Source of the DNA: a candidate division CPR3 bacterium GWF2_35_18
GTDB lineage: Bacteria > Patescibacteriota > CPR3 > GWF2-35-18
DNA length: 64,000 bases
Assembly: GCA_001771135.1 (NCBI GenBank)
Contig: MESW01000003.1
Coordinates: forward strand, 8,719 to 72,718
Direction of reading: 5' to 3'
In this document: positions 28,412 through 42,344 of the stretch, one piece after another
Numbering within the stretch: the first letter of the stretch is position 1
How the letters are laid out: each line of letters starts with the position of its first letter
Translations under genes and position numbers: made by a program
The notes under the pieces: generated by a model
What the model saw: only the letters and a program-made list of their open reading frames with translations
Database searches by the model: none
Told to the model about the DNA's origin: nothing

Positions 28412-28652
28412 GGTTCTCCTTAGAACGAAAATAAGCTGATTGTTATTGGAGTCTATTACGACTTTTTGAAGGACTTGGAGACGTCAATCGGTTCTCCGAA
28501 TGACGTTATGAAATAGGACAGAAAAGTTCCACGGTCTCCTCCTTTCGAATTGACCCGCGATTGGGGAAAGCGGGTTAAAAATGATCATATCGGCTTTTTA
28601 GCCGGGATGATTACAAGTGATAAATTATGAGGTGCAAAAAATATTAGGTAGT

Positions 28653-28709
28653 TCTTCGACTACGTTCAGAAACTAAATATTTGCTGAGTGCAATCGAAGC
28701 ATTACCTAT
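28653..28709. repeat. 57-bp repeat copy 1 (TCTTCGACTACGTTCA-N14-GCTGAGTGCAATCGAAGCATTACCTAT), 3' of csp-like gene
   Basis: Identical 16-nt and 27-nt blocks shared with 29931-29987; CTTCGA/TCGAAG arms can pair. Confidence 0.8.
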
Positions 28710-28942
28710 AAATCCGCCTTCGGCGAGATTGATAAACTCTAAGTTCATTCTTTACTAAGATTTCATCAAAAGAAAAAGCAGGGCTAGTAATAAGTATGAG
28801 AATTATATATGAAAAATAATAAATTCGCTATTTTTACTAGCCCTTTTTGTCTCTCTCTTTCTCTTTGTGGTAAAAAACCACAGATAATTGCGTGTACGCA
28901 TCAACCTGACGGTCGGTGCGTACGTGGTGGAGACAGATTCCC

Positions 28943-29650
28943 CTAATCCCCCTTTTGATCCTCCTGGAATTGAGCAACAACTTTTGGTTCGAATTCAACG
29001 CCTACGTCCAAGCCGCCAGCATAGTACTTACGGGCGCGTGCCAGATCGCCTTGATTCAAAGCAAGGTTTACAAAGAACGGGATATACAAGCACATGGCTT
29101 GCATGTTCAACTTTTCCCATTCCTCGCCTTTGCCCTTGCGAGCTTTTTTCTTCCGTACATCCTTGAGATTTTCCGCATTTACCTCAGTAGGATTTGCCTC
29201 AAAATCGGCAATAGCTTGACGTAAAACTTCCAAACTATATTCAGGTGATGCTGTCGGGATGGAACTTGATACTTTTGGTGTCAAGGATTGGCGTGGAGCT
29301 GCAGGAGGTTCAACCAAGTGTGAGCGATATGGTTGATCGTAAGATTGAATCGGCGTCCGAGTTGGCGTGCGTACCTGTTGATACTGATCTTGATGATTTG
29401 GTTCAGGATCGAAGCAACGTTGTCCTTTTGGTGGTTGACCAACAAGCGTTGCAGAAACAACCTGTTTTTGACCAAACTTTTTGGGGTTTGGACCAATAGT
29501 AACGTTATCAAGATACAATTCACGCAAGTTAGCTCCATACTCTGGTTGGTTTGTTAACGCAGTTACGTGAAAATACAAGCCATCTTGAAAATCCGGATGT
29601 TCAATAAAACCAAACCCTTTTCCCGGAAAGAAAACATATATCCTATACAT
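28943..29650 (-). CDS. Cold-shock-domain protein with long low-complexity C-terminal extension
   Basis: 235 aa; N-terminal GKGFGFIEHP…GLYFHVTAL CSD/RNP1-like motifs (~70 aa), then Pro/Gln/Lys-rich tail. Confidence 0.75.
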   Translation of the reverse strand: MYRIYVFFPGKGFGFIEHPDFQDGLYFHVTALTNQPEYGANLRELYLDNVTIGPNPKKFGQKQVVSATLVGQPPKGQRCFDPEPNHQDQYQQVRTPTRTPIQSYDQPYRSHLVEPPAAPRQSLTPKVSSSIPTASPEYSLEVLRQAIADFEANPTEVNAENLKDVRKKKARKGKGEEWEKLNMQAMCLYIPFFVNLALNQGDLARARKYYAGGLDVGVEFEPKVVAQFQEDQKGD

Positions 29651-29930
29651 AGTCTGTCTCCAAATGTGTAATGTGTGATATTCATGTGGCTAAATTTTAA
29701 CGATGGGTCATTAAACGACCTGAAAAGATAAGAATTCTAAAGGTTGTTTGAGATAGGAATCCTCCTTGAATTTGAACTTGTTCTCCAGTCAGCTTTTGCC
29801 GAGCGGAGTTTGGTAAAACCTTTTCCACTTTTGTGGTCAAGGGAAGAGAAAACAGGAAAAAAGTTATTAATTCCTATCCTCTATTCCCTTGAACACTAGA
29901 TTTAAGGTGCTAGTTATATATAAAGGTAAA

Positions 29931-29987
29931 TCTTCGACTACGTTCATATGATAATTAATTGCTGAGTGCAATCGAAGCATTACCTAT
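29931..29987. repeat. 57-bp repeat copy 2, 5' of csp-like gene
   Basis: See copy 1; loose similarity extends about 25 bp further upstream (AGGTGC…AGGTA…). Confidence 0.8.
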
Positions 29988-30002
29988 TTTTAAAAAGAGA
30001 CG

Positions 30003-30061
30003 GAGGCAGAAAGCTAAAAACACGATAATAAAAATATTTGTGTTTTGGAAGCTTTCTGCCT
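30003..30061 (-). terminator. Compound long hairpin (13-bp outer stem GAGGCAGAAAGCT/AGCTTTCTGCCTC, inner AAAACAC/GTGTTTT) followed by T-run on minus strand
   Basis: Inverted repeats read directly; T5 follows on minus strand about 85 nt after stop of 30149..30433; T-rich tract also follows on plus strand (bidirectional). Confidence 0.6.
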
Positions 30062-30148
30062 CAGATTGTCTCTCTCTTTTCTTTTTCCAGCATAAGCTGG
30101 AGATGATTGCTTCAGAAGGAGTGCGATGCACCCCTCCTGAAATAGATT

Positions 30149-30433
30149 TTAGTGGAATCTGCATCCATAATCGCCGTTGTGCATTTGACGACGCAGGTTG
30201 ATATGTCCACCTTTTTGGACCAAACCCAGGTATAGGACTGGGATACGAAAATCTCCGTCTGAGGGGATTACTTCTTCGTAATCACGTTTATCCTCTTGGA
30301 GTATTACCGCTCCCTGTAATCCTTTGACCCGGATTCGGTAGAACGTCCACGCTATCCAGTAGAACTCTCGAGTTACCTCGGCGAGCCAGTGGATTTTGTG
30401 AACTAATTCCTCGATACGTGTGGGGTGCATCAT
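30149..30433 (-). CDS. Island hypothetical protein
   Basis: 94 aa; AAAGGAGAAC RBS. Confidence 0.45.
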   Translation of the reverse strand: MMHPTRIEELVHKIHWLAEVTREFYWIAWTFYRIRVKGLQGAVILQEDKRDYEEVIPSDGDFRIPVLYLGLVQKGGHINLRRQMHNGDYGCRFH

Positions 30434-30507
30434 ACCCGTTCTCCTTTCGAAAAGATTTTGTGCTGCAATGTGAGCTCTTTGTTATACGGGTGATGATGTA
30501 GAAGTGA

Positions 30508-30849
30508 TTAACTACAGCGCTGCTCTTTTAAAAGCAGGTAGCGCATGATCGCGCCATGGTAGCAAACAAGAGGGCAGTGTGTGCAGCCGATCTCATCCCA
30601 TGGCCAATTGCCATCGTCCAAATTAATCTGGTAATCAGATATTCCTACGATTTCAACCAAATGGACACCCCAAACATCCAAGAGAACTGCGAAATCAGGA
30701 TGCAGAGATGAACCAAATTGGTTGATGATGTAACTCATGCTGGCTGCGATTTGCATAGGAAGAGCCTCTTTAAACAGTTCCGGGTCCACGAAAAATTGCA
30801 CTCCATTGATGCGGAGCATGACCGTGGGTGGTTGTGGATTTGCGCTCAT
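30508..30849 (-). CDS. Island hypothetical protein (start at MSANPQ, ATGA overlap with upstream gene)
   Basis: ~113 aa; translational coupling overlap with 30846..32105. Confidence 0.45.
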   Translation of the reverse strand: MSANPQPPTVMLRINGVQFFVDPELFKEALPMQIAASMSYIINQFGSSLHPDFAVLLDVWGVHLVEIVGISDYQINLDDGNWPWDEIGCTHCPLVCYHGAIMRYLLLKEQRCS

Positions 30850-32105
30850 GGCTGTACCTGTCTTACTCGAAGACCAGTGTCCCGATCCCACAGATTGGGC
30901 GGATTGTGAACAATCTGCCAGAGATCAACCATATTAGCTCCTGCGAGAACTTGAGCTTTTAGTGCATCTGCTGATATTTTTTCCAGTGAAGCAGCACGAG
31001 CGATGAATTCATCAAACAGGGTGGATACGTCTTCTTCTCTACTTGCTTCAGCACCCCAGCCTTGTTCTTCAGTGATTCGGGTGACATCATAGATGATTCG
31101 GTTAAGTGAATAAGCCATGCCGGCCTTTTCATCTTTGACATCCTGGGTGAGTTTTGCCAGTTGACGAATGATTTGCAGCAGCAAATTAGCCTGGTAGACA
31201 AAGTCCTTTCGGTCAAAACCACCGTATTCCTTGACCGGGAAAAACATCTGCCCAATGCCCAATCCGCTCCAGTTTAGGAGGAACCCATCCCAATACCTTT
31301 CCAATCCTGTACCAGGAGTCTTCCCACCAGGTTCGCCAGGAGATGAAATCTTAGTCTGACCGAAATCAGTCGGGCTAGCGATAGAGATGAACAGCATCCC
31401 TTCGGGCGCGGTGACTTTGACAAAGATGATCTGTTTGCGATACCAGATCATGACGTCATGGGTGCGATTCCACTCGCCGATGAAAAAGGCCTTGACGACC
31501 GGAAATAGGCACCACAACAGTGAGATAGCCATTCCAGCCAGGATACCCAGAAGCAATGGTTGCCAGACGACATTGATGTAACCAGATAGCAACCATTCTG
31601 TTAAGGTTCCATTCATCAGAGCATTGTAGGCAGGGAGCAAGGTTAGTCCCACTGCGACTATTAAGCCTCCGGTGAAGCCCAGAAAAAGAACCCAATACGC
31701 CTGACGGAGACCTTTACCGATGGCTTTGAACATGTCTTCGATGACGATAGTAATGTCTTCGAATATGACGATCTGGCATCTATCATCTTTCTCGAACCAC
31801 CACTGGATAGGGTTTTCGTACATGGTGTCCATCCAGCGGAATACCGGACTGAAGATCGCGACCGTGAAGACATAGAAACGGCGGATGGCCATGAATGATG
31901 TTCGGACGACCTCCTTCAAAAAATTGACCAACCGAGTTGGACCAATGAAGAACAGGATCAACATTGGTGATGAGATGATGAGAAGGGCCAAAAGCCCCCA
32001 TAATAACCAACCTTTGGTTGTAAAAACCAGAAGAGTGGCGCCGGCGAGGAGATAGAGAATCCAGGCGGCTAGGATAGATCGGAAATCAAGTTTGAAAATA
32101 CTCAT
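30846..32105 (-). CDS. Island polytopic membrane protein with cytoplasmic C-terminal domain (start at MSIFKLDF)
   Basis: ~419 aa; GAAAGGAGACCCC RBS before MSIFK; N-terminal half with several TM helices. Confidence 0.55.
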   Translation of the reverse strand: MSIFKLDFRSILAAWILYLLAGATLLVFTTKGWLLWGLLALLIISSPMLILFFIGPTRLVNFLKEVVRTSFMAIRRFYVFTVAIFSPVFRWMDTMYENPIQWWFEKDDRCQIVIFEDITIVIEDMFKAIGKGLRQAYWVLFLGFTGGLIVAVGLTLLPAYNALMNGTLTEWLLSGYINVVWQPLLLGILAGMAISLLWCLFPVVKAFFIGEWNRTHDVMIWYRKQIIFVKVTAPEGMLFISIASPTDFGQTKISSPGEPGGKTPGTGLERYWDGFLLNWSGLGIGQMFFPVKEYGGFDRKDFVYQANLLLQIIRQLAKLTQDVKDEKAGMAYSLNRIIYDVTRITEEQGWGAEASREEDVSTLFDEFIARAASLEKISADALKAQVLAGANMVDLWQIVHNPPNLWDRDTGLRVRQVQP

Positions 32106-32418
32106 GGGGTCTCCTTTCAACAAGATACTCCTTTCGAAATTGGTGGAGAGGGCCATTTGGCGCACTCCATGGAAAAACAACCCGCATTTTACGGGGACCA
32201 AACAGAATTAAGCTGCACATCGTGCAGGTTAAAAAAGAAATATTTAGTTTTAATGTACTTATAATTTTCTCTTCTAATTTCTAGAATTAAAGATTATTAA
32301 TCCCAGGAATCAGAAGAGAGGGTGGGTGACGATACAGTAATGTATGTCATGAAGGCAGCCACCCTCGTCTCTCTCCTGATGTTTGTATCACCGCGCGTAA
32401 GCAGGGTGAAGATTGATG

Positions 32419-32787
32419 TTACTTGATTTCTTGGACTTCGGCTTCCACGACTTCTTCTTCATAGCCAAGAGGCTCAGAATCAGATTGTTGGACACCGATG
32501 TCGGCGCGAGCTAAATCCAGAAACCATTGGGATCCAAAATACAAGACGATCACGTCGTCAAAGGGTCCAAAGAAGATATCCACTGGTACGATCACGTAAA
32601 GAATCGTGCCTATGAAGATCAGTTTGTGCCGAAAGAGCACCTTGGGGTGACGAAAGAGCATCCAGACCTCTTTCGCATTGGCGACAATGTCGGCAATAAG
32701 ATCCTTACGATTCTGTTCAGGCAGGCGACGGAGTCGCGCTCGTCCGGACGGAGAAGGTTGTGGATTTGCAGGAGGTGTTTTCTTCAT
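32419..32787 (-). CDS. DUF1232 (YkvA-like) small membrane protein
   Basis: 122 aa; YVIVPVDIFFGPFDDVIVL resembles DUF1232 signature (…SPIDLIPDFIP..G.LDD…). Confidence 0.5.
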   Translation of the reverse strand: MKKTPPANPQPSPSGRARLRRLPEQNRKDLIADIVANAKEVWMLFRHPKVLFRHKLIFIGTILYVIVPVDIFFGPFDDVIVLYFGSQWFLDLARADIGVQQSDSEPLGYEEEVVEAEVQEIK

Positions 32788-33545
32788 GGTTGTACCGTGA
32801 CCAATTCCGTGCGGATGTAGCAGGTCTGCCCTTCGGCGGTCGTAATCTGGTAAAGAGCATTGGAGCCATTCCAGGAGACCGGGGCGGTTGCTTCTCCGAT
32901 TATGATGATCACATCGCCAGTTGAAAGCTTGATGATCGAGGTCTGCCAGGTGCTTTCGTTCAAATCAGTATGGCAGTTGACGCCGTCATCATCCTGGAAG
33001 GTCACAGTGCCTTGGCGGTTCGCCGGAGTTGCAGTTGGAGCAGGTGTTGGAGTGTTTTGCGGAACTGCAGTTGCCTGGTTCATCACAACCTGGGTCGGAT
33101 TGGCAGTTGGTATAGTCGGACGGTCAATGCTCAGAATCAGTTCAATCCGGATGTAGCAGATTTGGCCGGTTTGATTAACCTTGACCCTGTACAGGTTGTT
33201 GGAGCTATTCTGCCAGGAAACAGGGGCTGTTCCGAATCCAATTACTTCGAGTTCTGTCCCATTTGGCAGAGAGATGATCTGGCTGGGTGTTGACCAAGTT
33301 GCTTCATCAGTGTTCAAATGGCATTGAACAGATCCAGAGCCATCGGTGGCGGCGACTTTTAGCCATTTCGCGGTGTTCCAGGGAGTAACCGTAGCCGCAA
33401 CGCGAACCGGGTCGATACTTCCGCCTAAAGTAATGGTCCTGCATAAACCGCAAAAACAAGCAACACAGATTATGGGAATGAGCAGGATCCAAAGCCAGGG
33501 GCGGCGTTTGCGATTTTGAGCGATTGAGGAAGTTGAAGTTGTCAT
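32784..33545 (-). CDS. Membrane-anchored protein with two tandem ~65-aa Cys-containing beta-rich repeats (SH3b-like?)
   Basis: 253 aa; N-terminal TM; repeats GSVQCHLN…APVSWQNS…CYIRIEL and GVNCHTDL…APVSWNGS…CYIRTEL separated by Pro/Thr linker. Confidence 0.55.
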   Translation of the reverse strand: MTTSTSSIAQNRKRRPWLWILLIPIICVACFCGLCRTITLGGSIDPVRVAATVTPWNTAKWLKVAATDGSGSVQCHLNTDEATWSTPSQIISLPNGTELEVIGFGTAPVSWQNSSNNLYRVKVNQTGQICYIRIELILSIDRPTIPTANPTQVVMNQATAVPQNTPTPAPTATPANRQGTVTFQDDDGVNCHTDLNESTWQTSIIKLSTGDVIIIIGEATAPVSWNGSNALYQITTAEGQTCYIRTELVTVQP

Positions 33546-33554
33546 AGCAATCTC

Positions 33555-34052
33555 CTATTGCTGAATATTTTGCACTTGCACAAGCTCCTGCCGGAGGTAG
33601 CAAGTTTGATTTTGGCCATCAAGTCTGACGAGGTATACATCTTTTGATCCATTCCAGATAGTGGGTGCAATATCTTCACCCAAAATCGTTACCGTCGTTC
33701 CAACATTCAACCTGACGATTGTGTTCGGATCAGTCCAGGTTTCATATGCCAGAGTGAGGTGGCATTGTACCGATCCGGAAGGATCATTGTAGGTGATGGT
33801 TCCCACAGTAATTACTACTGGGGTTGTGGTATCAGGAATAGCTGGAGTGACATTTTCTCCTTTTGATACCATTGGTAGAAAAACATAATTATAGTTGCCC
33901 AGACGCGCCGGGATAAAATCACCGTAGTACTCCGAGGTATCTGGGTTTACGTTTTGAGGTGTCGAAGACAGCGCCTGTAAACCAATCCAGGCAACGAACA
34001 CCAACAAAATGCCGATGATAAGATGCGGAATTCCAATTCTTGAAATCTTCAT
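33555..34052 (-). CDS. Membrane-anchored protein with one copy of the same SH3b-like repeat (paralogue of 32784..33545)
   Basis: 165 aa; N-terminal TM; SVQCHLTL…APTIWNGS…CYLRQEL. Confidence 0.55.
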   Translation of the reverse strand: MKISRIGIPHLIIGILLVFVAWIGLQALSSTPQNVNPDTSEYYGDFIPARLGNYNYVFLPMVSKGENVTPAIPDTTTPVVITVGTITYNDPSGSVQCHLTLAYETWTDPNTIVRLNVGTTVTILGEDIAPTIWNGSKDVYLVRLDGQNQTCYLRQELVQVQNIQQ

Positions 34053-34212
34053 GCCTTTAACCTCCGATAGAGCCTCCTGATTGGATGATGCTGGGGGGAA
34101 TTTTTCCGCCCAGTTTGATTTAAAGACCGATTTTGGTCTTTAACGATAACAAGAATAAAAAAAGGGATAATAGCAAATCCGTCAGCATAAGCTGGCGGAT
34201 TAATAGGTTGGA

Positions 34213-36204
34213 TCAGGAAGATCCGTTTGATCCGTACAGCTTGGAAGGCGAAGTTTTACCATCCTTGAGTTGATCATATGCAGATTCAGGAGTGATTCCA
34301 GCTTCAACTAACTTTTCCGCGACTTTACGGGTGAAGCTTTTTCCGCCTTCGGTAACCAGGCGCTCCGAAACTGCGAGCATAGCTACGACAGGATTATCAG
34401 TAGCAACTTGAACTAGCTCTGACGGCTCAATGCTCATCATTCTCAACGCCTTAAGCATCGTTGGAATAACATCATCTTTACCCTGTAGTGCTTGGGCCGC
34501 TTGAAGAAGTTGATCTACCGGCGAGATGGTTCCCACTCTTTGCTGGATTAAAACGAAAGCTCGTTGACGTGAGTCTGGTTGTAAAGAAGCAAAAAGCTGC
34601 TCCAGAACTTGTTCAGGAACTGGGATTCCGGCCGTGCGCCACATAGCGAAGGTTGCCGCAGCTTTGTTAGGAACCGAACGTAGTTTCGCACCGGCTTCGG
34701 TAGCGATGAGACGATAGGCTTCTTCAACTTCACGATGAGCCCATTCTTCATCCTCGACTTTCCAGGCCGTTCTGATGGCTCCTTCTTCAAAAGGAATCGT
34801 GAGCAAAAACTGACGCAGATAAGCGAGGATTGCTTTGTGGGCATCAAATCCCTTTTCGCCGGCAGCAGCACGTTCCATTCTAACCGCAAAGTCAGTATGA
34901 ATTTGCAGTCGATCAGGAGATAGCATATCTTCTAACTCGCGAGTACCGGTTTCGGTCATGTCAATCCACGGACGCGGGGTGGTCGGATTCTTCTCCGTGT
35001 AATGCATGATCAGAGAAGTTGCAGTTGGTTTCCCGATTTCATGGGCCACAGTGCCCGATGAAGTTTTCTCACCTTCGTAAAGGCTTGTTACAATCGGTGT
35101 CAAGGAACCACCTCCTGGCACTGAGCCGAAGAAGAGATAGTTATTGACAACCCAACTCAAAGCACCGGTCGGAATACCTGATCCTGCGAAGCCCTCACCG
35201 GCGATAGATTTGATTTGTCCCAATCCTTTAACAAGGCCAATGGCCGAGTCCAGGAAATAGAACACATCATAGCCTTCCGTAACGAAAGTCTGGGCGACCG
35301 ATCTTGACAGTTCAGCGTTGAGAAGAATTGTAGCTGGTGTTGCTCCAGTGAAGAAGAACGTATTAAGATGTGGATATTTAGCCAAACCAGCCGCCATTTT
35401 CCGGGCATCCCCTACTCTTTCACCAACGCTTAGGCAAATGATCACCGTGTTGTCTTTTTTGAGACCCAGTTCTTGATCGGTACAAGCCAAGACAGCATCG
35501 AGATAGGCACGCGCCGTCCAGGTTTTACCTGATTTCGATGGACCAAGGATTAGGCTGAGAGCACCGATACCGAAAGGCGCTTTGGCGCGGAGAATCTTCA
35601 TGGTCACATTGCCATTGACTGTTGACTCAAGCTCTCTGACCGAGTGCGCCAGCTTGCGTTGGCCGACGAGATGCTTCATGAAACTGGGTCTCATAGTTTT
35701 CTGAACACGTCCATTAACTGCCAGGATGACAATCAGGTTTCCTTGCAAGGTATACTTCACGATGTCACCCATACGAATATCCCATGTTTCAAGGACTTTG
35801 GTATCTAATATAGGAACTCTTCGCATGAATTCTTTCTTGTCTTCAGTCGTGAGTAGAAGCTCGCCTGCAGGAACCAGAAGATACGTGTTTTTTTCTACGA
35901 AACAGAAACGTTCAACAGCCAAGATCCTACCAGAAGCTGGATCAATCCAGACTACTTCGTTGACACTGAGTCCCCAACGAGTAACTTCCGCGTCGGAGAG
36001 AGGAATTCCAGACTTCGCCGTTCGTTCTTTGAGAGCAAGAACTTCAGCTTTTTTTTGATCATCAGGCTTGTCGGAGATATGAATTTCGTCTTCCTGAATA
36101 AGATAATTTCCATTCATCTGCGGAGTGATAGCATAGAATGGATTTTGACGCGCATGGTAATTCGCGTCATGAATTGAAAAAACAAAACGTTTCTCCATTT
36201 TCAC
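34213..36204 (-). CDS. rho: Divergent Rho-family transcription termination factor/RecA-like hexameric ATPase with ~190-aa C-terminal extension
   Basis: 663 aa; OB/CSD-like segment (WDIRMGDIVKYTL…IVILAVNG cf. Rho FNLRTGDTIEGKI…LKVEAVNG); Walker A LILGPSKSGKT; FLDSAIGL; GGGSLTPIVTSL (cf. Rho EGGSLTIIATAL); PWIDMTETGTRELEDML (cf. PAIDYNRSGTRKEELL). Confidence 0.7.
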   Translation of the reverse strand: MKMEKRFVFSIHDANYHARQNPFYAITPQMNGNYLIQEDEIHISDKPDDQKKAEVLALKERTAKSGIPLSDAEVTRWGLSVNEVVWIDPASGRILAVERFCFVEKNTYLLVPAGELLLTTEDKKEFMRRVPILDTKVLETWDIRMGDIVKYTLQGNLIVILAVNGRVQKTMRPSFMKHLVGQRKLAHSVRELESTVNGNVTMKILRAKAPFGIGALSLILGPSKSGKTWTARAYLDAVLACTDQELGLKKDNTVIICLSVGERVGDARKMAAGLAKYPHLNTFFFTGATPATILLNAELSRSVAQTFVTEGYDVFYFLDSAIGLVKGLGQIKSIAGEGFAGSGIPTGALSWVVNNYLFFGSVPGGGSLTPIVTSLYEGEKTSSGTVAHEIGKPTATSLIMHYTEKNPTTPRPWIDMTETGTRELEDMLSPDRLQIHTDFAVRMERAAAGEKGFDAHKAILAYLRQFLLTIPFEEGAIRTAWKVEDEEWAHREVEEAYRLIATEAGAKLRSVPNKAAATFAMWRTAGIPVPEQVLEQLFASLQPDSRQRAFVLIQQRVGTISPVDQLLQAAQALQGKDDVIPTMLKALRMMSIEPSELVQVATDNPVVAMLAVSERLVTEGGKSFTRKVAEKLVEAGITPESAYDQLKDGKTSPSKLYGSNGSS

Positions 36205-36535
36205 CTTTCCTTTCTTGAAAAAATCCGCAACCGCTTCGGAGTAAAGGGATTGCTTCTGAAATACAAATTAACCCGATTAACCGGGATAATTAACAAAGTA
36301 TTGTTCTTTCAAATTTAAATTTGAAAAGAAGATTTTCTAAGCAATAACTTAGAAAGATTCATTTTTTAGGTGCAAAAGAGTTTTTTAAAAGTATTTTTTA
36401 GATAACTCTTTGTTTACGCTCAGAGATTGAAGCTGAAAGCAAACAAAGTATTATCTAAGTTATAAAGTGAGAGAGGATAGTCCTAAATGAGAGGTTTCAA
36501 GGCGGATGCCAAGAAAAATTCATAAAGGACTATCC

Positions 36536-37969
36536 TTATGGTGTAGTCTCGTTGTTCTCCTCTCCCACTGTTTGAAAGGTGATCATGTTCGGATTATCCG
36601 ATACAGTCACCCATTGACCAATTATAGTGTAGTTCGTTGTGTTTTTGATAATCAAATCCATACCGCCACTAGCTCCAGCATGAGATTCACCACCGGTGCA
36701 GTTAATTGCCACCGTAAAAAATGATGAGCCACCGCTATGAGCTGGTGAGTTCAGGATTTGAAGACCTGGAGTATGTTGTGCCCAGGAATCAATGAAAGTG
36801 GCGTTGGCACAAAGTCCACCGGCGTTGATACCTGCCGCGTAAACATAACCTGACCAACCCGTCTCATTGACAGAAGCGCAAAAACTCCATTGTTGGCCAG
36901 CGGCGATTCGAACGGTTGAAACGTTATGAGTGTAAATCATGAAGTTTCCCGACTGACCATCGTGCGGAATGTTTCCAGATCGAATATCCACACTGATGAT
37001 TTCGCCCGAAGCGGTGCCAGTTGATGGCAGAGAGGATCTCTGCGTATCCAAACTTCGATAGAGATCATTGGGCAGAAGCCCAAAGAAGTTCATAACTGAC
37101 GCAAAAGTGCGTAGAGTATCACCGTCGAGATTGGTATCTCCAAAGGTGAGACCGGATACAATGCGTGAGTTATAAACCTCAGACAGATTGACCATCGCAT
37201 CAACATCGGCGATAAGTTGAACTCGATAGCTTTCGCTTTGATTCCAACCTCGCAGTTCTTGAATGCGTTGTTCAACAGAATGGTCTGACCGGTAACCGAT
37301 AGCGTAAACATACCAGGCTGTAGCATGCCAGCGAACGCGATCATTCCAGAAGTTACAGGTCATGAGAACCGGATCACCGGAGGGAATAAGGCCTTTTTCG
37401 CAGACTAGCTTTGCGGTTGAGGCGATAAATCCACCCGGAAGTTCACCAGTCGAAGCATGTCCTGTATAACCTGTATAACCATCGTAGATGTGACCATCGG
37501 TCACATTGTTTTCTTTCCAATGGTTAAGAAGCCAGGTTTGGGCTGCAACTTCCACGGCACAGTTAACATTCGGGTTTGAGCATGCCGCAGTTTTTGCGTC
37601 GTAAGCGGCAGAACGACCCTCATGTTGATCAAGTATAATGTACACACCTGGATCTCCAGCAGATGCTTCAATAGTGTTACTAATCCAGAGACTAGCTTCG
37701 ATGGAACCAGCGACATCCACAGGGTTTAAACCTTGAGCCGTTAATTGCTCTTCTTGAGCCTCCGTGAGGACAGGGTATCCGGACATGTCAATGTCCAGTA
37801 GCTCAGATACCGCTGTATCCCAAGTCCGGGGGATCATGGACTGCACTTGCCAAGCCGCCACTAGGGCAGCAAAGAAAATACAGCCCATGATTATCACCCC
37901 GCAGACCAGGAAAAAGGCAAAACGGCCTAGACGTTTTTCGAAGAACTTTCTCGACCGTTTTTTGCTCAT
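36536..37969 (-). CDS. Secreted/membrane-anchored protein of unknown function, immediately downstream of VirB4-like gene
   Basis: ~478 aa from MSKKRSRKFF (AGGGAGG RBS); N-terminal TM/signal; many Cys, Gly/Ser/Thr-rich. Confidence 0.55.
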   Translation of the reverse strand: MSKKRSRKFFEKRLGRFAFFLVCGVIIMGCIFFAALVAAWQVQSMIPRTWDTAVSELLDIDMSGYPVLTEAQEEQLTAQGLNPVDVAGSIEASLWISNTIEASAGDPGVYIILDQHEGRSAAYDAKTAACSNPNVNCAVEVAAQTWLLNHWKENNVTDGHIYDGYTGYTGHASTGELPGGFIASTAKLVCEKGLIPSGDPVLMTCNFWNDRVRWHATAWYVYAIGYRSDHSVEQRIQELRGWNQSESYRVQLIADVDAMVNLSEVYNSRIVSGLTFGDTNLDGDTLRTFASVMNFFGLLPNDLYRSLDTQRSSLPSTGTASGEIISVDIRSGNIPHDGQSGNFMIYTHNVSTVRIAAGQQWSFCASVNETGWSGYVYAAGINAGGLCANATFIDSWAQHTPGLQILNSPAHSGGSSFFTVAINCTGGESHAGASGGMDLIIKNTTNYTIIGQWVTVSDNPNMITFQTVGEENNETTP

Positions 37970-37983
37970 GTAGGCCTCCCTTG

Positions 37984-40329
37984 TTAGTTTGGCACACCGA
38001 GCAAGTCCAACAGACTGCGTTCGAGATGAGGATTGAACCAACCGCGCCATCCTGGAGGTGGACCCATTCTTTTCTTTGCTTCTTCAGGACCTTCTACCCC
38101 ATCCAACTGTTGTTCCATTGATTCATAACCAGAAGGGGGTTTTACTTCCCAAAGATTTGAGAGGGTTACATTTGGAGGGTAAAACACTTCGGCCAGCCGG
38201 TGCTTGCGATTCGGTTCATTACTGAAGACTAAGGCAACAGGGAAATCGTTTAAGATTGCCTGACCAAAGTTCTCCACGATGCTGGCGAAGCTGTGGAATA
38301 TACCGAAGAAACCGGTATTGTACTTCCGACAGGTGTTCATCACGATACTGAAGGATCGGCGAAAGTTTTTTGTTACCACTGGAGCTTGATCTCCAATGAC
38401 GGAATCTCGCTCAGCTTCTGACGCCGCAACCATATCGTCCACGATGACAACCATCTCTTCACCTAAATCGCAGGCCAGCTTTCCGACTGCTGGAATCGTG
38501 ATTTCCTGAATTAGTCTCAGGTATTCCAGATAGACAAACTGATTTCCCGATTCTCTGCGAATCACCCAAGGAAAGCCTAAAATCCGACCATTCTTTTTGA
38601 TTTGCTGCACCAATATTTCGGTGCTGGCCATAACTTCTTTCCGAAGCTGAACTGCCATTTGATTGAACTGCTCAGGGCTTTCGGGATTACCGAAGGTGTA
38701 GATCGGTGCTTGGCCTCCAAGCTTAATCGCCAACTCGCTGGTCCACGGTTCTTGGGTATCTGAAACATGCAGAACGATAACGTTCCTCGTTCGCATGTAG
38801 GCTGATATGACTGCCATTACCGTTTTCCCCGAACCTGATGGGCCTAAGAATAACGCCGATGGGGTTTTGTCCCATGAGACGAGACGATGAGTTACCGGAT
38901 GACGACCGAGTGGCCAGGCTCCGCCAGAAACGCCCACAGCTTCGGTGCTGTCCGCAACGACCTTGAGCATTTCACTCCACTTCCGGACGGCGAAGCGTTT
39001 TGCTTGATAAGCAGTTACAGGAGTCGCCATTAGATTGAGGAACCAATCCCAGACCTTTCCCGTCATTCGGAAGAACCGATTGTTTGAGTATTGACGTTGA
39101 ATAGGAGTGGTTCCAATCTTCCAAGGCGATCCAGGAATCATACTATACAGTGTTCTGCGAAGATAATCCGGATCTTGGTTTTCGACACCCATCACGCGTT
39201 CGTGGCGAGAAGGCAGACTATTTTCTGTCTGAGTTAGATCTATTTCCGTACCTGCCGCCATGACCAAAACCGATGTCCAGATTTCCGGACTAGAGAGGTT
39301 CTCTTGCTCGATACAAACATGAACATCGAGAGAGAAAAGCACCTCCCATTCCTCTTTTGTCGCCGGATACACTCGCCAAAGGGCAACGTGTTTGTCGCCA
39401 TGAGTATAATCGGCTTCATGAAAACGAAGATCTGGCAAAGCTCCGAGAATTGGCTTTGGCATGGGATTGTCACCATGGGTTGTTGACCCTGAAGTGAGGA
39501 ATGCATATGCCAGATTTGCCCATTGTGATGGGTTTAAAGGTGTAGCTCCCGCTAATGCGGTAGTCGCCATTTTGGGATTGAAACAGTGATTAGCCAGTCC
39601 GGTCATGACAAGCATTCGTCCACGATCATTTGCACCAGCCGCATAATACCGTTCTAGCTCCTGGTGAAGATTTACCCAGAGAGCATTTCCTGGCATCTGC
39701 CGTGTGGCGGTTGTGATTAACTGATGAAACGCTCTATTGTCGTGTGGAACACTCATTGAAATCATTTTCCACCACATTGGATTGACTCCGCGACCAGATG
39801 GATCGAGTAAATGGTCAGCAAGCATCGGTGGCGTTTGATGAACACCAACGACCATTGATCGACCATCATTTACCGAATTTGAATCAATCGGTATCAGAAT
39901 GGCAACAGGACCATTAACACCTACCGGAGTATAAGACTGCACTTTAAAGCCATAAAGCGCTTCCGCTTCAGCCACAAGATCTTCAATGGGCATTGGCGCG
40001 AACGGCATGCTAGCGTGTAGAATTTGGGTCAAAGCCGGGTGGCCGCGACCTTTGATCGTTATTGTGGCTGGAACTGGTCCTTGCGCAGTAACGTGGCGTT
40101 TTCCTTCTCGACCTGGAATTTGAGATTTACCGATGGTTTGGCCAATCACAACAGTTTCCAGACCTAAACGTAGAGAAGCTTTGAAGAAAGGAGTGTCGCT
40201 TTTGATAGTAAGCAATCCAGCTTGACGAAGTTCAAAATGATTATATCCGTTCGGACTCATTACCCGAACATCTGCCAACACCGATGGTGGTGGCAATTGA
40301 AAGAGGGAGGGTAAGTTTGTATTTTTCAT
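37984..40329 (-). CDS. VirB4/TraC/TrbE-family conjugation/secretion ATPase-like protein
   Basis: 781 aa; Walker A LFLGPSGSGKT in C-terminal half; Walker B MVVIVDDMVAASEAE; RKYNTGFFGIFHS resembles VirB4 motif (…RKfN…ATQS); size as VirB4. Confidence 0.65.
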   Translation of the reverse strand: MKNTNLPSLFQLPPPSVLADVRVMSPNGYNHFELRQAGLLTIKSDTPFFKASLRLGLETVVIGQTIGKSQIPGREGKRHVTAQGPVPATITIKGRGHPALTQILHASMPFAPMPIEDLVAEAEALYGFKVQSYTPVGVNGPVAILIPIDSNSVNDGRSMVVGVHQTPPMLADHLLDPSGRGVNPMWWKMISMSVPHDNRAFHQLITTATRQMPGNALWVNLHQELERYYAAGANDRGRMLVMTGLANHCFNPKMATTALAGATPLNPSQWANLAYAFLTSGSTTHGDNPMPKPILGALPDLRFHEADYTHGDKHVALWRVYPATKEEWEVLFSLDVHVCIEQENLSSPEIWTSVLVMAAGTEIDLTQTENSLPSRHERVMGVENQDPDYLRRTLYSMIPGSPWKIGTTPIQRQYSNNRFFRMTGKVWDWFLNLMATPVTAYQAKRFAVRKWSEMLKVVADSTEAVGVSGGAWPLGRHPVTHRLVSWDKTPSALFLGPSGSGKTVMAVISAYMRTRNVIVLHVSDTQEPWTSELAIKLGGQAPIYTFGNPESPEQFNQMAVQLRKEVMASTEILVQQIKKNGRILGFPWVIRRESGNQFVYLEYLRLIQEITIPAVGKLACDLGEEMVVIVDDMVAASEAERDSVIGDQAPVVTKNFRRSFSIVMNTCRKYNTGFFGIFHSFASIVENFGQAILNDFPVALVFSNEPNRKHRLAEVFYPPNVTLSNLWEVKPPSGYESMEQQLDGVEGPEEAKKRMGPPPGWRGWFNPHLERSLLDLLGVPN

Positions 40330-40520
40330 GCCTTTCTCCTTGCGGAATGGGACCGGGGGCGGAACAGCGCCCGGCTATTACAAAACTCGCTTTTGTAAGC
40401 GAGATAACCAACATATTTATTTTTATTTGCTTTTTTAAATGTGCCTGTCTCTTCCTCCTTTTAGACTCTTTGATTAATAAGAATTATTTCCAGAATACAA
40501 AGAATCAAAAGGAGAGAGAG

Positions 40521-40567
40521 GAATGATCCGTACAACGAGTGTTGTGCGTCCGTTATACGGATCATTC
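40521..40567. repeat. 12-bp-arm perfect palindrome GAATGATCCGTA-N23-TACGGATCATTC
   Basis: Inverted repeat read directly; lies between VirB3-like and VirB4-like genes; loop carries smaller hairpins. Confidence 0.8.
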
Positions 40568-40596
40568 TTTATTGTAGTCTCGTTGTTCCTCTCTTT

Positions 40597-40857
40597 CTAC
40601 TGAGGTTTAGGGTTTTCGAGTTTGTGCTTCACGGAGAAGCGAATAAAGGCGATCAGTCGCCAGCATCCAACTCCGATCAGATACAAGCCGAAGATACCCA
40701 TTTCGATGAGAATCAACTGAATCAAGCCGATCCGGAAGATCATGGGTCCAATGATCCAGCTGAAAACGATAACAAAAGCCAGGGTGATGATGACCAGGAT
40801 GGTCAACACCGTGGGCTTCTCACCTTGATTTGTAAGGAGATACATCAGTTTTTTCAT
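40597..40857 (-). CDS. VirB3-like small 2-TM membrane protein
   Basis: 86 aa, two hydrophobic helices; directly upstream of VirB4-like gene; ATGA overlap with the VirB6-like upstream gene. Confidence 0.5.
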   Translation of the reverse strand: MKKLMYLLTNQGEKPTVLTILVIITLAFVIVFSWIIGPMIFRIGLIQLILIEMGIFGLYLIGVGCWRLIAFIRFSVKHKLENPKPQ

Positions 40858-42344
40858 GATTCTTCTCCTGAAGTGTGTGTCTCTACATAATGAACAACAG
40901 CTTCTTCGGCAATAGAACCAGCAATCGGAGCAGCTTCTGGTGCACCCAAAGCAGTTGCGGCGGTAGCTCCAGCTATATATCCGATTTCTCCAAGGAGTTC
41001 TCCATTTACGTTTCGTTGCTCGACTTTCGTAGGAACGCCGTTGACCGATACATCGTCACCAGAAATTTCCGGATAAACCTGGCTTCCAGCTCGCGCATAA
41101 ACAGTGCCATCAGGACCAACAATATCCTCTGAAGCAAAGTAACGCTCTTCAGGTGCTGGAGTATTTTCCGGTAGGACGTTTGGATCAGCGTTAGGAAGAG
41201 TTTCTTTTCCAGTTTGAGAGTCATCACCGTCTGTAGGAATTCCAGTCGTTGGAGCAGGAGTGATGATGGGTTTACCATCGCTACCGTCGTTTACCGGTCG
41301 GAATTCTCCTTCGACGATCTCTGACTCAGAGGTGCTTGGAGATGGAGTCTTTCCATTACCGCCATGACCACCATTACCACCGCCATTGGTTTGACCAGTT
41401 GGAAGCTGACGCTGACCTGGCTTAGGCGCTGGGGCGTTGGGATTACTGACTTTGATATCAGGATCTTTATCCTTATGACGGGATAAAATCCATGTCTGGA
41501 AACCTTCCCAAAGCGTTTCCGCTTTGTCGTCCCACCAGCTATGGTCATGTCCATCTTCATCTTCGGGCAGCATGGATTTGATGACCGTGAGTCCGGCGAT
41601 GATCGGGAAGATCAGTAAAGCTCCCATAAGGAAGGCATAAGTGGAACCTGGCTGGTTCATGTTTGCAGCAAGCAACTGCATCATGAGACCCCAACTCAAG
41701 TCCATAAGAAGAAAGAGACCAAAGGCAGTAAACCAAGCCATGATTGGTTTCAGGCTTTTACGGAAAATCGCCATTGGGATGAGGATAATCGGCGCAATTG
41801 CGAGGAGGATCTCGTACGCCAGATGGCCTGCGAGATAGCCGTACGTTAGTGGAATGCCCACGAACGACATGAAGTCGACGCTCGTGTTGAGGCTGAGCCA
41901 GTCAACCGTGAATCCCATTGCCCTCCGGGCAAGATCAGGGCCGATGCCGAATACTTGCCATAGCAATTTGCCGATTTCATCCGCCATGGTATAGGTGACA
42001 AATGGTGCCGGTAGGACAAACATCATCTCTAGCCAAAACCAGTGCCGTTTAGCAATCGCTTCGGGAACATTTTCCCTTTTTACCGCCGACACAATTACAT
42101 TCAGGCAGAAAATCAGGAATAGTCCTAGACCAATTGCAAGCATTCCCCATACCAAGACAGGATTGGAGTCAAAGATTTGCTGGATACTACTGACATTGAT
42201 CCAAGCTTTGTTCTCAAAATCAATGACTCCATTGACGAATGTTTCGACTTGATCAATTAATTCGCCGGCAGCGCTGCACCCGGTCAACAGAGTTGACAGG
42301 AGCACGACGCCGGACAGGCGCAGCACGAGTTTAGTTTTTTTCAT
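40854..42344 (-). CDS. VirB6/TrbL-like polytopic membrane lipoprotein with long disordered Pro/Gly/Asp-rich C-terminal tail
   Basis: 496 aa; lipobox LLTGCS; >=5 TM helices; C-terminal ~200 aa low complexity. Confidence 0.5.
   Translation of the reverse strand: MKKTKLVLRLSGVVLLSTLLTGCSAAGELIDQVETFVNGVIDFENKAWINVSSIQQIFDSNPVLVWGMLAIGLGLFLIFCLNVIVSAVKRENVPEAIAKRHWFWLEMMFVLPAPFVTYTMADEIGKLLWQVFGIGPDLARRAMGFTVDWLSLNTSVDFMSFVGIPLTYGYLAGHLAYEILLAIAPIILIPMAIFRKSLKPIMAWFTAFGLFLLMDLSWGLMMQLLAANMNQPGSTYAFLMGALLIFPIIAGLTVIKSMLPEDEDGHDHSWWDDKAETLWEGFQTWILSRHKDKDPDIKVSNPNAPAPKPGQRQLPTGQTNGGGNGGHGGNGKTPSPSTSESEIVEGEFRPVNDGSDGKPIITPAPTTGIPTDGDDSQTGKETLPNADPNVLPENTPAPEERYFASEDIVGPDGTVYARAGSQVYPEISGDDVSVNGVPTKVEQRNVNGELLGEIGYIAGATAATALGAPEAAPIAGSIAEEAVVHYVETHTSGEES

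What the first reader, a model, noticed from the sequence alone, without database searches (positions are those of the whole stretch)
34213..36204. Island-encoded divergent Rho homologue with ~190-aa C-terminal extension
The 663-aa protein shows Rho-specific motif collinearity: an OB/CSD-like segment ending IVILAVNG; Walker A LGPSKSGKT; GGGSLTPIVTSL; and PWIDMTETGTRELEDML (cf. PAIDYNRSGTRKEELL). It adds ~40 aa N-terminally and ~190 aa C-terminally relative to canonical Rho. It is preceded by a 330-bp AT-rich leader (36205-36535), reminiscent of autoregulated rho leaders. A Rho gene inside a foreign island next to a CSD protein is unusual. It may be a second, specialised Rho for island gene expression, or evidence that the island is a fragment of another chromosome.
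Basis: partly seen in the sequence, partly recalled or inferred. Interest (0 to 1): 0.7.

Follow-up and report, generated by a model that had tools for sequence, protein, structure and literature searches.

The report
Rho-derived ring ATPase in a mobile envelope module
The gene is a real but extremely divergent relative of the transcription terminator Rho that keeps Rho's ATP-burning machinery, has lost Rho's RNA-contact residues, has gained a new 190-residue tail domain, and always travels inside a conserved cluster of membrane and cell-wall genes on horizontally acquired DNA, so it is probably a motor for that cluster and not a second terminator.

Summary
A 661-aa ORF (34213-36198, minus strand; the listed GTG start is two codons too early) has Rho as its closest relative by sequence profile (hhalign 99.7%, E 4e-27) and by fold (top 50 PDB hits are all Rho). 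It is not an orthodox Rho. It scores 35-42 bits against curated Rho cut-offs of 315-628. It lacks the Rho_N domain, the primary-site aromatic residues and the Q-loop and R-loop lysines. It keeps every catalytic residue: Walker A and B, the catalytic Glu/Arg pair and the arginine finger.

It belongs to a tiny undescribed family: 24 representatives at E<=1e-10 among 1.84 billion. Most members share a conserved, structured C-terminal helical domain of about 190 aa with no Pfam or PDB match. In four independent loci the gene occupies the same slot in one cassette: polytopic membrane protein, small TM protein, second P-loop ATPase, VanW/M23 envelope protein, Rho-like, surface proteins, DUF1232 (CSD-fused in one locus), membrane protein.

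The host is a CPR3 (Patescibacteria) genome. The 18-kb island (46% GC against 33%) lies beside a tRNA cluster, between uvrA and uvrB.

Best reading: a Rho-derived motor of a mobile, envelope-spanning apparatus. Function is inferred, and homology to T4SS ATPases was tested and not found.

The parts
34213..36198 (-). Rho-like ring ATPase gene, 661 aa (G2; KKP70135.1, deposited as 'hypothetical protein')
   Evidence: ORF; start corrected; Rho is the closest family; under purifying selection against L001
35818..36198 (-). N-terminal region (aa 3-129 in 663-numbering). Present at this length only in the window protein, P0001 and P0005, and poorly modelled
   Evidence: Alignment A2; pLDDT below 50 for residues 14-103; no Rho_N hit; the idea of an internal duplication is not supported (E=1.4)
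35635..35817 (-). OB-fold segment homologous to the second half of Rho's RNA-binding domain (W141..R144.GD147..IVILAVNG)
   Evidence: hhalign aligns query 130-190 with Rho 78-150; W141 is invariant, D147 nearly so and R144 mostly conserved, but Y80 and Y110 equivalents are not conserved
34795..35634 (-). RecA-type ATPase core: Walker A K227/T228, catalytic E262/R263, Walker B D319/S320, arginine finger R422
   Evidence: K227, E262, R263 and R422 are invariant in 21 family members, and T228 and D319 vary only conservatively (one S, two E). pLDDT is mostly 85-97, with a dip to about 65 at residues 331-340; pN 0.068 against L001
34213..34794 (-). Family-specific C-terminal all-alpha domain (about 190 aa) ending in a conserved tail F.RK.A..LV.AG..P.EV...L..G..P..L
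   Evidence: Alignments A2 and A3; 11 predicted helices, pLDDT 73; no Pfam hit; no PDB fold match, best E 2.2; constrained, pN 0.215 against pS 0.73
36199..36535 (-). 337-nt AT-rich spacer or leader (31.8% GC). The proximal 110 nt is conserved with L001 and folds into three hairpins (about 36266-36291, 36228-36253, 36203-36225). The last hairpin pairs a U-run with the Shine-Dalgarno GGAAAGG
   Evidence: Only two sequences are available; the window fold z-score is -0.97 and the L001 fold z-score is -3.7
36474..36536 (-). Very stable hairpin that starts at the stop codon of the upstream gene; likely a 3'-end or terminator element separating the two transcription units
   Evidence: Inverted repeat I10; -30.1 kcal/mol, z = -7.95
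36536..37972 (-). G1: single-TM envelope protein with a weak VanW-like C-terminal domain; always immediately upstream of the Rho-like gene
   Evidence: Pfam VanW E 7e-4; orthologues upstream of the Rho-like gene in L005, L006, L008, L017, L018 and L021; the L018 orthologue carries Peptidase_M23
37984..40329 (-). G5: soluble 781-aa P-loop ATPase (Walker A GPSGSGKT at about residue 496); the second ATPase of the cassette
   Evidence: It is not detectably VirB4 or VirD4
40597..40857 (-). 86-aa small membrane protein between G4 and G5. A small ORF occupies this slot in every locus
40854..42344 (-). G4: 496-aa polytopic membrane protein with a lipoprotein-type signal (LTGC)
42362..42700 (-). 112-aa hydrophobic protein with weak similarity to ICE pilin-like conjugal transfer proteins
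   Evidence: NF045849 E 1.5e-4, below its cutoff; the L017 orthologue hits PF18895 T4SS_pilin at E 0.016
32784..34052 (-). G7: two single-TM or secreted proteins (165 aa and 253 aa) sharing a repeated domain. This is the variable surface-protein slot downstream of the Rho-like gene
32419..32787 (-). G6: DUF1232 membrane protein
   Evidence: Orthologues in L002, L005, L017 (fused to CSD) and L021
30846..32201 (-). G3: 451-aa polytopic membrane protein; the distal conserved member of the cassette
28943..29650 (-). CSD-like protein (N-terminal KGFGFI / YFHV cold-shock motifs plus a long tail)
   Evidence: Pfam CSD E 0.002. In L017 a CSD is fused to the DUF1232 protein two genes after the Rho-like gene
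26807..44895 (.). The foreign island: about 18 kb, all genes on the minus strand, between the tRNA-Val/Met/Arg cluster with uvrA and uvrB
   Evidence: GC profile; tRNAs; uvrA and uvrB; no integrase and no att repeat found

Best explanation
The gene encodes a soluble, catalytically competent ring ATPase descended from Rho (an OB fold followed by a RecA-type ATPase). It founds a small, undescribed family. The family keeps every residue needed to bind and hydrolyse ATP at subunit interfaces. It has lost Rho's N-terminal HeH domain and the residues that contact RNA in Rho's primary and secondary sites. It has gained a conserved helical C-terminal domain of about 190 aa. The gene is a fixed component of a conserved, horizontally mobile cassette that is otherwise made of membrane, surface and cell-wall proteins plus a second P-loop ATPase. 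I propose that it is the cytoplasmic motor of this envelope-spanning apparatus. In this model a hexamer docks through the C-terminal domain. It uses Rho-like sequential ATP hydrolysis to thread a linear polymer through its pore to or from the membrane complex. The most likely substrate is single-stranded nucleic acid of the element. It would not be the cell's transcription terminator. Shown: Rho homology and fold, catalytic-residue conservation, loss of RNA-contact residues, the conserved extension, conserved synteny, purifying selection and island context. Inferred: hexamer formation, docking role of the extension, nature of the substrate and the transport function of the cassette.
For: Rho is the closest family by HMM, by PDB sequence search, by profile-profile alignment (99.7%, E 4e-27), by the family profile hitting bona fide Rho at 1e-37 to 1e-28 and by fold (the top 50 hits are all Rho, target-normalised TM 0.64-0.78). 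The catalytic residues K227, E262, R263 and R422 are invariant in 21 members, and T228 and D319 vary only conservatively. The RNA-contact positions are not conserved, and the OB segment and C-terminal extension are mostly acidic or neutral. The extension is conserved, helical and under constraint. Synteny G4 - small TM - G5 ATPase - G1 VanW/M23 - Rho-like - surface proteins - DUF1232 - G3 holds in the window, L017, L018 and L021, and partly in L005, L006 and L008. These loci have 22-35% identity between Rho-like proteins and different flanks. Nine of the cassette's neighbouring genes encode proteins with TM-like segments, and both ATPases are soluble. A cold-shock (single-strand-binding) domain is fused to the DUF1232 membrane protein in L017 and encoded separately in the window island. 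Orthologous small proteins give two independent weak hits to T4SS or ICE pilin families. The mobile context consists of a GC-deviant island beside tRNAs and an integrase, HTH_17 and PDDEXK nuclease next to the module in L005.
Against: No component of the cassette could be assigned to a known secretion or conjugation family at significance. The G5 ATPase shows no detectable homology to VirB4 (hhalign prob 9%) or VirD4 (prob 1%). No relaxase, integrase or replication gene was found in the window island. Loss of the Rho RNA-contact residues, together with an acidic OB segment in most members, also weakens any nucleic-acid substrate. The gene has its own long leader and a strong hairpin separating it from the upstream operon, so it may be regulated independently. 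Synteny is evidence for functional linkage only. It does not show a motor role. Hexamer formation was not modelled.
Confidence: 0.42

Rival explanations
1. It is a genuine, element-encoded Rho-type transcription termination factor. On this view it is a specialised second Rho, or the only Rho of this reduced genome. It would load on nascent RNA and terminate or silence transcription, for example to control island genes or to interfere with the host. The C-terminal domain would replace the lost N-terminal RNA- or RNAP-recognition functions.
For: Rho is by far the closest known family, and the whole Rho body from residue 78 to 408 is alignable. The catalytic machinery is intact. Atypical Rho proteins with added regions, or lacking the N-terminal domain, are known and thought to be functional (Moreira et al. 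2024, PMC11347177). The gene has its own structured leader, as rho genes often do. JGI named one family member 'transcription termination factor Rho'.
Against: Scores are 35-42 bits against curated Rho cutoffs of 315-628, and there is no Rho_N or Rho_RNA_bind Pfam hit. The primary-site residues Y80, E108 and Y110 and the secondary-site residues K283, T286 and K326 are replaced and not conserved in the family. The OB segment is acidic in most members. The family is very rare and always sits in a membrane and cell-wall cassette, never with transcription or translation genes. Known Rho extension regions are at most about 69-107 aa and predicted disordered, whereas this one is about 190 aa and helical.
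Confidence: 0.2
2. It is the motor of the cassette but moves or unfolds polypeptide, not nucleic acid. It would then be functionally analogous to the related FliI/SctN export ATPases and would feed secreted surface proteins (the variable genes just downstream) to the membrane complex.
For: FliI/SctN ATPases are the next-best sequence relatives. The RNA-contact lysines are lost. In the closer subclade the Q-loop reads G-[FLMY]-A-[GAS], a glycine-flanked hydrophobic or aromatic residue. The OB segment and extension are acidic in most members. Secreted or single-TM proteins of variable sequence always follow the gene.
Against: The Q-loop hydrophobic residue is not conserved across the whole family. 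The fold and domain order are Rho's (OB N-domain) and not those of F1/FliI. The presence of a CSD protein in the cassette points to nucleic acid. No known protein-export system uses a Rho-type ATPase (my knowledge).
Confidence: 0.15
3. It is a replication, maintenance or partition helicase of the mobile element (a DnaB-like role taken over by a Rho-type ring), unrelated mechanistically to the neighbouring envelope genes.
For: Rho is a 5'-3' ring helicase. The only viral structural neighbours are DnaB-like and RecA-like helicases. No other replication gene is recognisable in the island.
Against: Those viral matches are weak and generic (TM 0.15-0.4). The family is absent from the phage, plasmid and IMG/VR collections as far as these searches could see. 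Its fixed position in the middle of the envelope gene block argues for a role with those genes.
Confidence: 0.08
4. It is a decaying, non-functional relic of a transferred rho gene, or an assembly or binning artefact.
For: The divergence from Rho is extreme, the composition is foreign and the host is a metagenome-assembled genome.
Against: The 661-codon frame is intact. pN is 0.126 against pS 0.746 relative to L001, with the ATPase core at pN 0.068. The catalytic residues are invariant or nearly so across 21 members. The same protein and junction were recovered in many independent assemblies.
Confidence: 0.02

Closest known systems
Transcription termination factor Rho (TIGR00767 / NF006886; E. 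coli Rho, PDB 1PV4, 3ICE, 5JJI)
   Same: Same fold and domain order (OB domain then RecA-type ATPase). It is alignable from Rho residue 78 to 408. Walker A and B, catalytic E211/R212, arginine finger R366 and the GGSLT and P.ID..SGTR motifs are conserved.
   Different: About 18-21% identity, and 35 bits against cutoffs of 315-509. There is no Rho_N HeH domain and no RNP1 motif. Y80, E108, Y110, K283, T286, K326 and R269 are replaced. It has an extra structured C-terminal domain of about 190 aa. It is encoded in an envelope-gene cassette on a mobile island and not at a housekeeping locus.
Atypical Rho types of Moreira et al. 2024 (PMC11347177): Type 3 (C-terminal extension) and Type 4 (no N-terminal domain); NCBIfam NF041509 'paralog_Rho2, short form'
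   Same: It lacks a recognisable N-terminal domain like Type 4 and Rho2, which is its best NCBIfam hit at 42 bits. It carries an addition after the ATPase domain like Type 3.
   Different: Type 3 extensions are short (up to 69 aa in the survey, with a +107 aa example), mostly in Bacillota, and predicted disordered. This extension is about 190 aa, helical and conserved. The score is 42 against a cutoff of 628 for Rho2. Those types retain detectable Pfam Rho domains and this protein does not.
FliI / SctN (T3SS and flagellar export) and F1/V1 ATPase catalytic subunits
   Same: RecA-type ring ATPases of the same superfamily. It gives a sub-threshold PF00006 hit (23 bits) and weak FliI/SctN hits. 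Like FliI/SctN, it is a soluble ATPase encoded among membrane-apparatus genes.
   Different: The matches are much weaker than to Rho (E 1e-3 against 1e-10) and cover only about 90 residues of the core. The N-terminal domain is Rho's OB fold and not the F1-type beta-barrel.
Monoderm conjugative T4SS (MPF-FATA; e.g. pCF10 PrgH-PrgI-PrgJ-PrgK...PcfC) and the Patescibacteria T4SS described by Quinonero-Coronel et al. 2025 (PMC12102498)
   Same: The gene order is analogous: polytopic membrane protein, small membrane protein, an ATPase of about 650-800 aa, then a cell-wall-active protein, with a pilin-like small protein upstream and surface proteins nearby. There are weak pilin-family hits. The Patescibacteria systems also usually lack a relaxase.
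   Different: The cassette's big ATPase has no detectable similarity to VirB4 or VirD4, and VirB4 is the defining T4SS component. No known T4SS contains a Rho-type ATPase, and the Patescibacteria T4SS paper does not mention one.

Membership tests
Rho transcription termination factor | Score at or above the curated family cutoffs (TIGR00767 509 bits; NF006886 315 bits; NF041509 628 bits) | tested here: not met
   35.5, 34.9 and 42 bits
Rho transcription termination factor | N-terminal HeH domain (Pfam Rho_N, PF07498) | tested here: not met
   No hit even at E<=10; hhalign coverage starts at Rho residue 78
Rho transcription termination factor | OB/CSD-type RNA-binding domain (Pfam Rho_RNA_bind, PF07497) with primary-site residues (RNP1 GFGFLR, Y80, E108, Y110) | tested here: not met
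   No PF07497 hit. The second half of the OB fold aligns and the fold matches, but Y80 is I, E108 is a gap, Y110 is L, and these positions vary across the family
Rho transcription termination factor | RecA-type ATPase with Walker A K184/T185, catalytic E211, R212, Walker B D265 and arginine finger R366 | tested here: met
   K227, T228, E262, R263, D319 and R422; four invariant and two (T228, D319) varying only conservatively in 21 members
Rho transcription termination factor | Secondary RNA-binding site: Q-loop K283/T286 and R-loop K326 | tested here: not met
   K283 is G338, T286 is G341 and K326 is T381; not conserved as Lys or Thr in the family
Rho transcription termination factor | Homohexameric ring with RNA-dependent ATPase and 5'-3' translocase activity and termination activity | not testable with these tools
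   Needs multimer modelling and biochemistry
Type IV secretion / conjugation system (MPF-FATA type) | VirB4-family ATPase | tested here: not met
   G5 has no VirB4 hit in Pfam, NCBIfam or PDB; hhalign against pCF10 PrgJ gives prob 9%
Type IV secretion / conjugation system (MPF-FATA type) | Type IV coupling protein (VirD4 or TcpA) | tested here: not met
   Only a sub-threshold PF02534 hit on the P-loop of G5 (16.9 bits against 20.1); hhalign against PcfC gives prob 1%
Type IV secretion / conjugation system (MPF-FATA type) | VirB2-like pilin, VirB3/VirB6-like membrane proteins and a cell-wall hydrolase near the ATPase | tested here: inconclusive
   Pilin-like hits are below cutoff (E 1.5e-4; E 0.016). 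Membrane proteins of the right size and order are present. Peptidase_M23 is found only in the L018 orthologue of G1, and VanW is weak elsewhere
Type IV secretion / conjugation system (MPF-FATA type) | Relaxase | tested here: not met
   No relaxase domain in any island protein scanned
F1/V1/FliI/SctN ATPase | Best homology to PF00006 ATP-synt_ab family members, with an F1-type N-terminal beta-barrel | tested here: not met
   PF00006 scores 23.4 bits, below the 29.5 cutoff. FliI/SctN reach E 0.008-0.02 against Rho at 7e-11. All top folds are Rho
Integrated mobile element / genomic island | Deviant composition and insertion next to tRNA genes | tested here: met
   The island is 46% GC (genes 43-55%) against a 33% backbone, and it starts at tRNA-Arg 26733-26806
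Integrated mobile element / genomic island | Integrase or recombinase, flanking direct repeats, and an empty-site allele | tested here: not met
   No integrase in the window island. The longest boundary repeat is 10 nt. Every contig long enough carries the island. A tyrosine integrase, HTH_17 and PDDEXK nuclease flank the module in L005 only

The most novel reading that the evidence does not exclude
A lineage of Rho has been exapted away from transcription. It would be the first Rho-family ring ATPase that serves as the energising or translocating motor of a previously unrecognised envelope-spanning transfer or secretion apparatus. None of that apparatus's parts is assignable to known T4SS, T3SS or T7SS families. 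The apparatus would be carried on mobile islands of Patescibacteria and other uncultivated bacteria.
Probability: 0.3. Interest if true: 0.8.

Novelty: new variant of a known kind. Interest (0 to 1): 0.6.

Why it matters
Rho is regarded as a single-purpose machine: a ring helicase dedicated to transcription termination. Its known diversification is limited to insertions and extensions around an otherwise highly conserved core (PMC11347177, PMC12360218). This family keeps the motor, discards the RNA-recognition residues and adds a new domain. It is also locked into a cassette of membrane and cell-wall genes that spreads horizontally. If it really is the motor of that cassette, this would be a case of motor exaptation comparable to F1-like ATPases recruited for other functions in Mycoplasma (my knowledge, not tested here). 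It would also define a new envelope apparatus in CPR bacteria, whose epibiotic lifestyle depends on poorly understood surface machinery. Even on the conservative reading, it extends the known sequence and architecture space of Rho well beyond current classifications. It also supplies a natural set of separation-of-function variants, with catalysis retained and RNA sites altered.

Tried and rejected
1. My idea that the C-terminal extension is built from three HeH/SAP/Rho_N-like repeats found no support. No Pfam hit appeared for any of 11 C-terminal regions, and there was no PDB fold match (best E 2.2).

2. The idea that the N-terminal extra region is a duplicated half-OB was not supported (BLASTP E 1.4), and the model is poor there.

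3. VirB4 or VirD4 identity for the 781-aa ATPase was rejected by Pfam, NCBIfam, PDB profile search and hhalign.

4. A defence-system reading found nothing in PADLOC.

5. A prophage reading found no PHROG hit for any of 10 island proteins. There were no family members in INPHARED phages, in BFVD or in four IMG/VR scans.

6. A plasmid reading found only canonical rho genes in PLSDB records.

7. The search for an island-free allele at uvrB found none.

8. The search for att repeats found none of 11 nt or longer.

9. Attempts to name other host organisms failed. Two genome-contig scans were negative, two family alignments were too divergent for the scanner, one metagenome scan was negative and exact look-ups returned no organism names. 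The only taxonomic labels obtained are CPR3 for the window and 'Patescibacteria group bacterium' for P0077.

10. The word-index homology search was nearly blind to this family. Only the exhaustive HMMER search found it.

11. The afdb50 fold library was unavailable.

12. Whether a canonical rho exists elsewhere in the CPR3 genome could not be tested. Only 64 kb is in hand, and the literature searched says nothing about Rho in CPR.
Full report
OBSERVATION. The ORF is real. It lies at 34213-36204 on the minus strand and is 663 aa when read from a GTG. The true start is the ATG at 36198, giving 661 aa. The deposited protein (KKP70135.1, 'hypothetical protein', candidate division CPR3 bacterium GW2011_GWF2_35_18) begins there. 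A GGAAAGG Shine-Dalgarno sequence lies upstream. In the one close relative (P0001 on L001, 80% identity) the GTG is out of frame and a TTG occupies the ATG position. The gene sits in an 18-kb block in which all genes are on the minus strand. That block is 43-55% GC per gene in a 33% GC backbone. It is bounded by a tRNA-Val/Met/Arg cluster with uvrA on one side and uvrB on the other.

IS IT RHO? By every measure, Rho is the closest known family.
- NCBIfam gives the Rho2 paralogue at 7e-11 and rho at 5e-9, against FliI/SctN at 0.008-0.02.
- phmmer against PDB gives M. tuberculosis Rho at 5e-10 and E. coli Rho at 7.5e-7, against T3SS ATPases at 1e-3.
- A 21-member family profile hits bona fide Rho proteins at 1e-37 to 1e-28.
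- The same profile aligns to E. coli Rho with 99.7% probability (E 4.4e-27) over query 130-471 and Rho 78-408. I confirmed the Rho sequence I used as identical to 1PV4 chain A.
- An AlphaFold2 model has mean pLDDT 78 and is mostly above 85 over residues 130-500. Against the PDB it returns Rho chains as all 50 top hits (E down to 7e-18, target-normalised TM 0.64-0.78).

It nevertheless fails the membership tests for Rho. Its scores are 35-42 bits against curated cut-offs of 315-628. No Rho_N or Rho_RNA_bind domain is detected, and only a sub-threshold ATP-synt_ab hit appears. Mapping through the hhalign alignment gives two contrasting results.
- The catalytic set is complete: K227/T228 (Rho K184/T185), E262/R263 (E211/R212), D319 (D265) and R422 (R366). 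Four of these are invariant across 21 family members, and T228 and D319 vary only conservatively.
- The RNA-contact residues are gone and not conserved. Y80 is I, E108 is a gap, Y110 is L, and the RNP1 region is not alignable. K283 is G, T286 is G, K326 is T and R269 is G.

The OB segment is acidic in most members, and so is the C-terminal extension.

THE FAMILY. The word-index search found only one relative. The exhaustive HMMER search of 1.84 billion representatives found 45 hits, 24 of them at E<=1e-10. The weakest hits are probably ordinary Rho, judging by their scores and lengths. Most members share the C-terminal addition. Its tail carries a conserved motif, F.RK.A..LV.AG..P.EV...L..G..P..L. 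The extension is predicted to be all-helical, with 11 helices at pLDDT 73. It has no Pfam match and no PDB fold match (best E 2.2).

Comparison with L001 shows strong purifying selection in every segment. Whole-gene pN is 0.126 against pS 0.746 (synonymous sites are saturated). The ATPase core has pN 0.068 and the extension pN 0.215. This is a functional gene with a functional extension.

Known Rho 'extension regions' are at most about 69-107 aa and predicted disordered (Moreira et al. 2024, PMC11347177). This architecture therefore falls outside their Types 1-4.

CONTEXT. Contexts were retrieved for 12 family members. All-against-all comparison defines a conserved cassette in the window, L017, L018 and L021-L023, and partly in L005, L006 and L008. 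Its order is:
- G4, a polytopic membrane protein
- a small TM protein
- G5, a soluble 650-780-aa P-loop ATPase
- G1, a single-TM envelope protein (VanW-like, or carrying Peptidase_M23 in L018)
- G2, the Rho-like protein
- variable secreted or surface proteins
- G6, DUF1232
- G3, a polytopic membrane protein

The Rho-like proteins in these loci are only 22-35% identical to the window protein, and the flanking genes differ. This is conserved linkage and not recent shared ancestry of a whole region.

In L017 the DUF1232 protein is fused to a cold-shock domain. The window island encodes a separate CSD-like protein with KGFGFI and YFHV motifs. A hydropathy scan shows that both ATPases are soluble and that nine of the cassette's neighbouring genes encode proteins with TM-like segments. 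In L005 the module lies next to an HTH_17 protein, a tyrosine integrase and a PDDEXK nuclease.

WHAT IS THE CASSETTE? Its order resembles the monoderm conjugation core. In pCF10 that core runs PrgH (VirB6-like), PrgI (VirB3-like), PrgJ (VirB4) and PrgK (hydrolase). Two orthologous small proteins give weak, independent hits to pilin-like conjugal-transfer families: NF045849 at E 1.5e-4 and PF18895 at E 0.016.

The decisive test failed. A three-sequence profile of G5 shows no similarity to VirB4 (prob 9%) or VirD4 (prob 1%). PDB and Pfam see only a generic P-loop. No relaxase or integrase is present in the window island.

PADLOC, PHROGs, phage records, plasmid records, BFVD and IMG/VR gave nothing specific. 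The cassette is therefore an unclassified envelope-associated module. 'T4SS-like' is an analogy and not a membership.

IS THE ISLAND AN ARTEFACT? No. The uvrB-island junction recurs in the independently assembled contigs from ENA, NCBI and JGI that extend far enough past uvrB, and the protein is identical in three deposited assemblies. I found no island-free allele and no att-like repeats. Mobility of this particular copy is therefore inferred from three things: its composition, its position beside tRNA genes, and the occurrence of the cassette elsewhere.

THE LEADER. The 337-nt spacer is the most AT-rich internal spacer of the island (31.8% GC), but all island spacers are AT-rich. Its proximal 110 nt is conserved with L001. 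In both sequences it folds into the same three hairpins, with some compensatory changes. The last hairpin pairs a U-run with the Shine-Dalgarno sequence. A very stable hairpin (z -7.95) begins at the stop codon of the upstream gene. This suggests a separate, regulated transcription unit. With only two sequences it is a lead and not a finding.

MECHANISM. Several things are shown:
- the protein has Rho's fold
- it has a complete set of residues for ATP hydrolysis at subunit interfaces
- Rho's RNA-contact residues are lost
- a new conserved domain has been added
- it is genetically linked to an envelope module
- it is under purifying selection

The rest is inferred. The protein would form a Rho-like hexamer and dock through its C-terminal domain. 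It would power movement of a linear polymer for the cassette. Single-stranded nucleic acid is the more likely substrate, given Rho ancestry, the CSD partner and the mobile-element context. I put this at about 0.4.

The rivals are:
- a true specialised terminator (0.2)
- the same motor acting on polypeptide (0.15)
- an element helicase (0.08)
- a relic or artefact (0.02)

VERDICT. It is probably wrong about function. This is a new variant of a known kind, namely a Rho-derived ATPase family in a non-transcriptional genomic context. It is of moderately high interest. The functional claim remains unproven.

Noticed in passing
window 28646-28709 and 29924-29987: A 64-nt direct repeat (88% identical) lies in two AT-rich spacers of the island. 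Each copy is upstream (minus strand) of a small gene: the 78-aa ORF at 28175-28411 and the CSD-like gene at 28943-29650. It looks like a shared promoter or operator element.
   Followed up: no
L017 10258-11127: A single 289-aa protein combines a cold-shock domain with DUF1232. In the window these are separate genes (28943-29650 and 32419-32787). The fusion implies a membrane-tethered single-strand nucleic-acid-binding protein in the cassette.
   Followed up: partly
window 36474-36536: An exceptionally stable hairpin (-30 kcal/mol, z = -7.95) begins at the stop codon of the VanW-like gene. It is not followed by a U-run.
   Followed up: partly
L011 and L012 (ends of contigs), corresponding to window about 43390-44142: Several independent metagenome contigs that carry uvrB stop inside the first island gene. 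This may reflect strain heterogeneity or a coverage change at the island border. No island-free contig was seen.
   Followed up: partly
window 27096-27560: The 154-aa island protein ends in a four-cysteine motif (C..C...C..C) that looks like a zinc ribbon by eye. It has no family hit.
   Followed up: no
window 19288-25692 and 44896-46992: uvrC, an unannotated 650-aa gene, uvrA and uvrB are clustered in the backbone, and the island splits uvrA from uvrB. A LexA-like repressor lies nearby at 54702-55322 (Pfam LexA_DNA_bind and Peptidase_S24 on the corresponding gene of L009).
   Followed up: no
window 60279-61646: A bacterial Elp3-family radical-SAM/GNAT tRNA-modification enzyme is present (TIGR01211, 549 bits). 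Such enzymes are uncommon in bacteria (my knowledge).
   Followed up: no
window 1-26806: There are 13 tRNA genes in 64 kb, several in tight clusters (7438-7644, 8827-10140, 26373-26806). The ORF listing output shows long ORFs overlapping some of them, which are therefore spurious.
   Followed up: no
L021 18211-21767: In the JGI contigs the cassette is followed by a UPF0182-family membrane protein and an FtsK/SpoIIIE-type ATPase. The host of these contigs is unknown, and at 52% GC it may not be a Patescibacterium.
   Followed up: no
window 36536-38050 versus 37984-40329: The mechanical 504-aa ORF for the VanW-like gene overlaps the end of the 781-aa ATPase gene by 67 nt. Public gene calls give shorter products of 477 or 450 aa. 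Reading from the internal ATG at 37972 gives 478 aa, 11 nt after the ATPase stop, which suggests translational coupling.
   Followed up: partly
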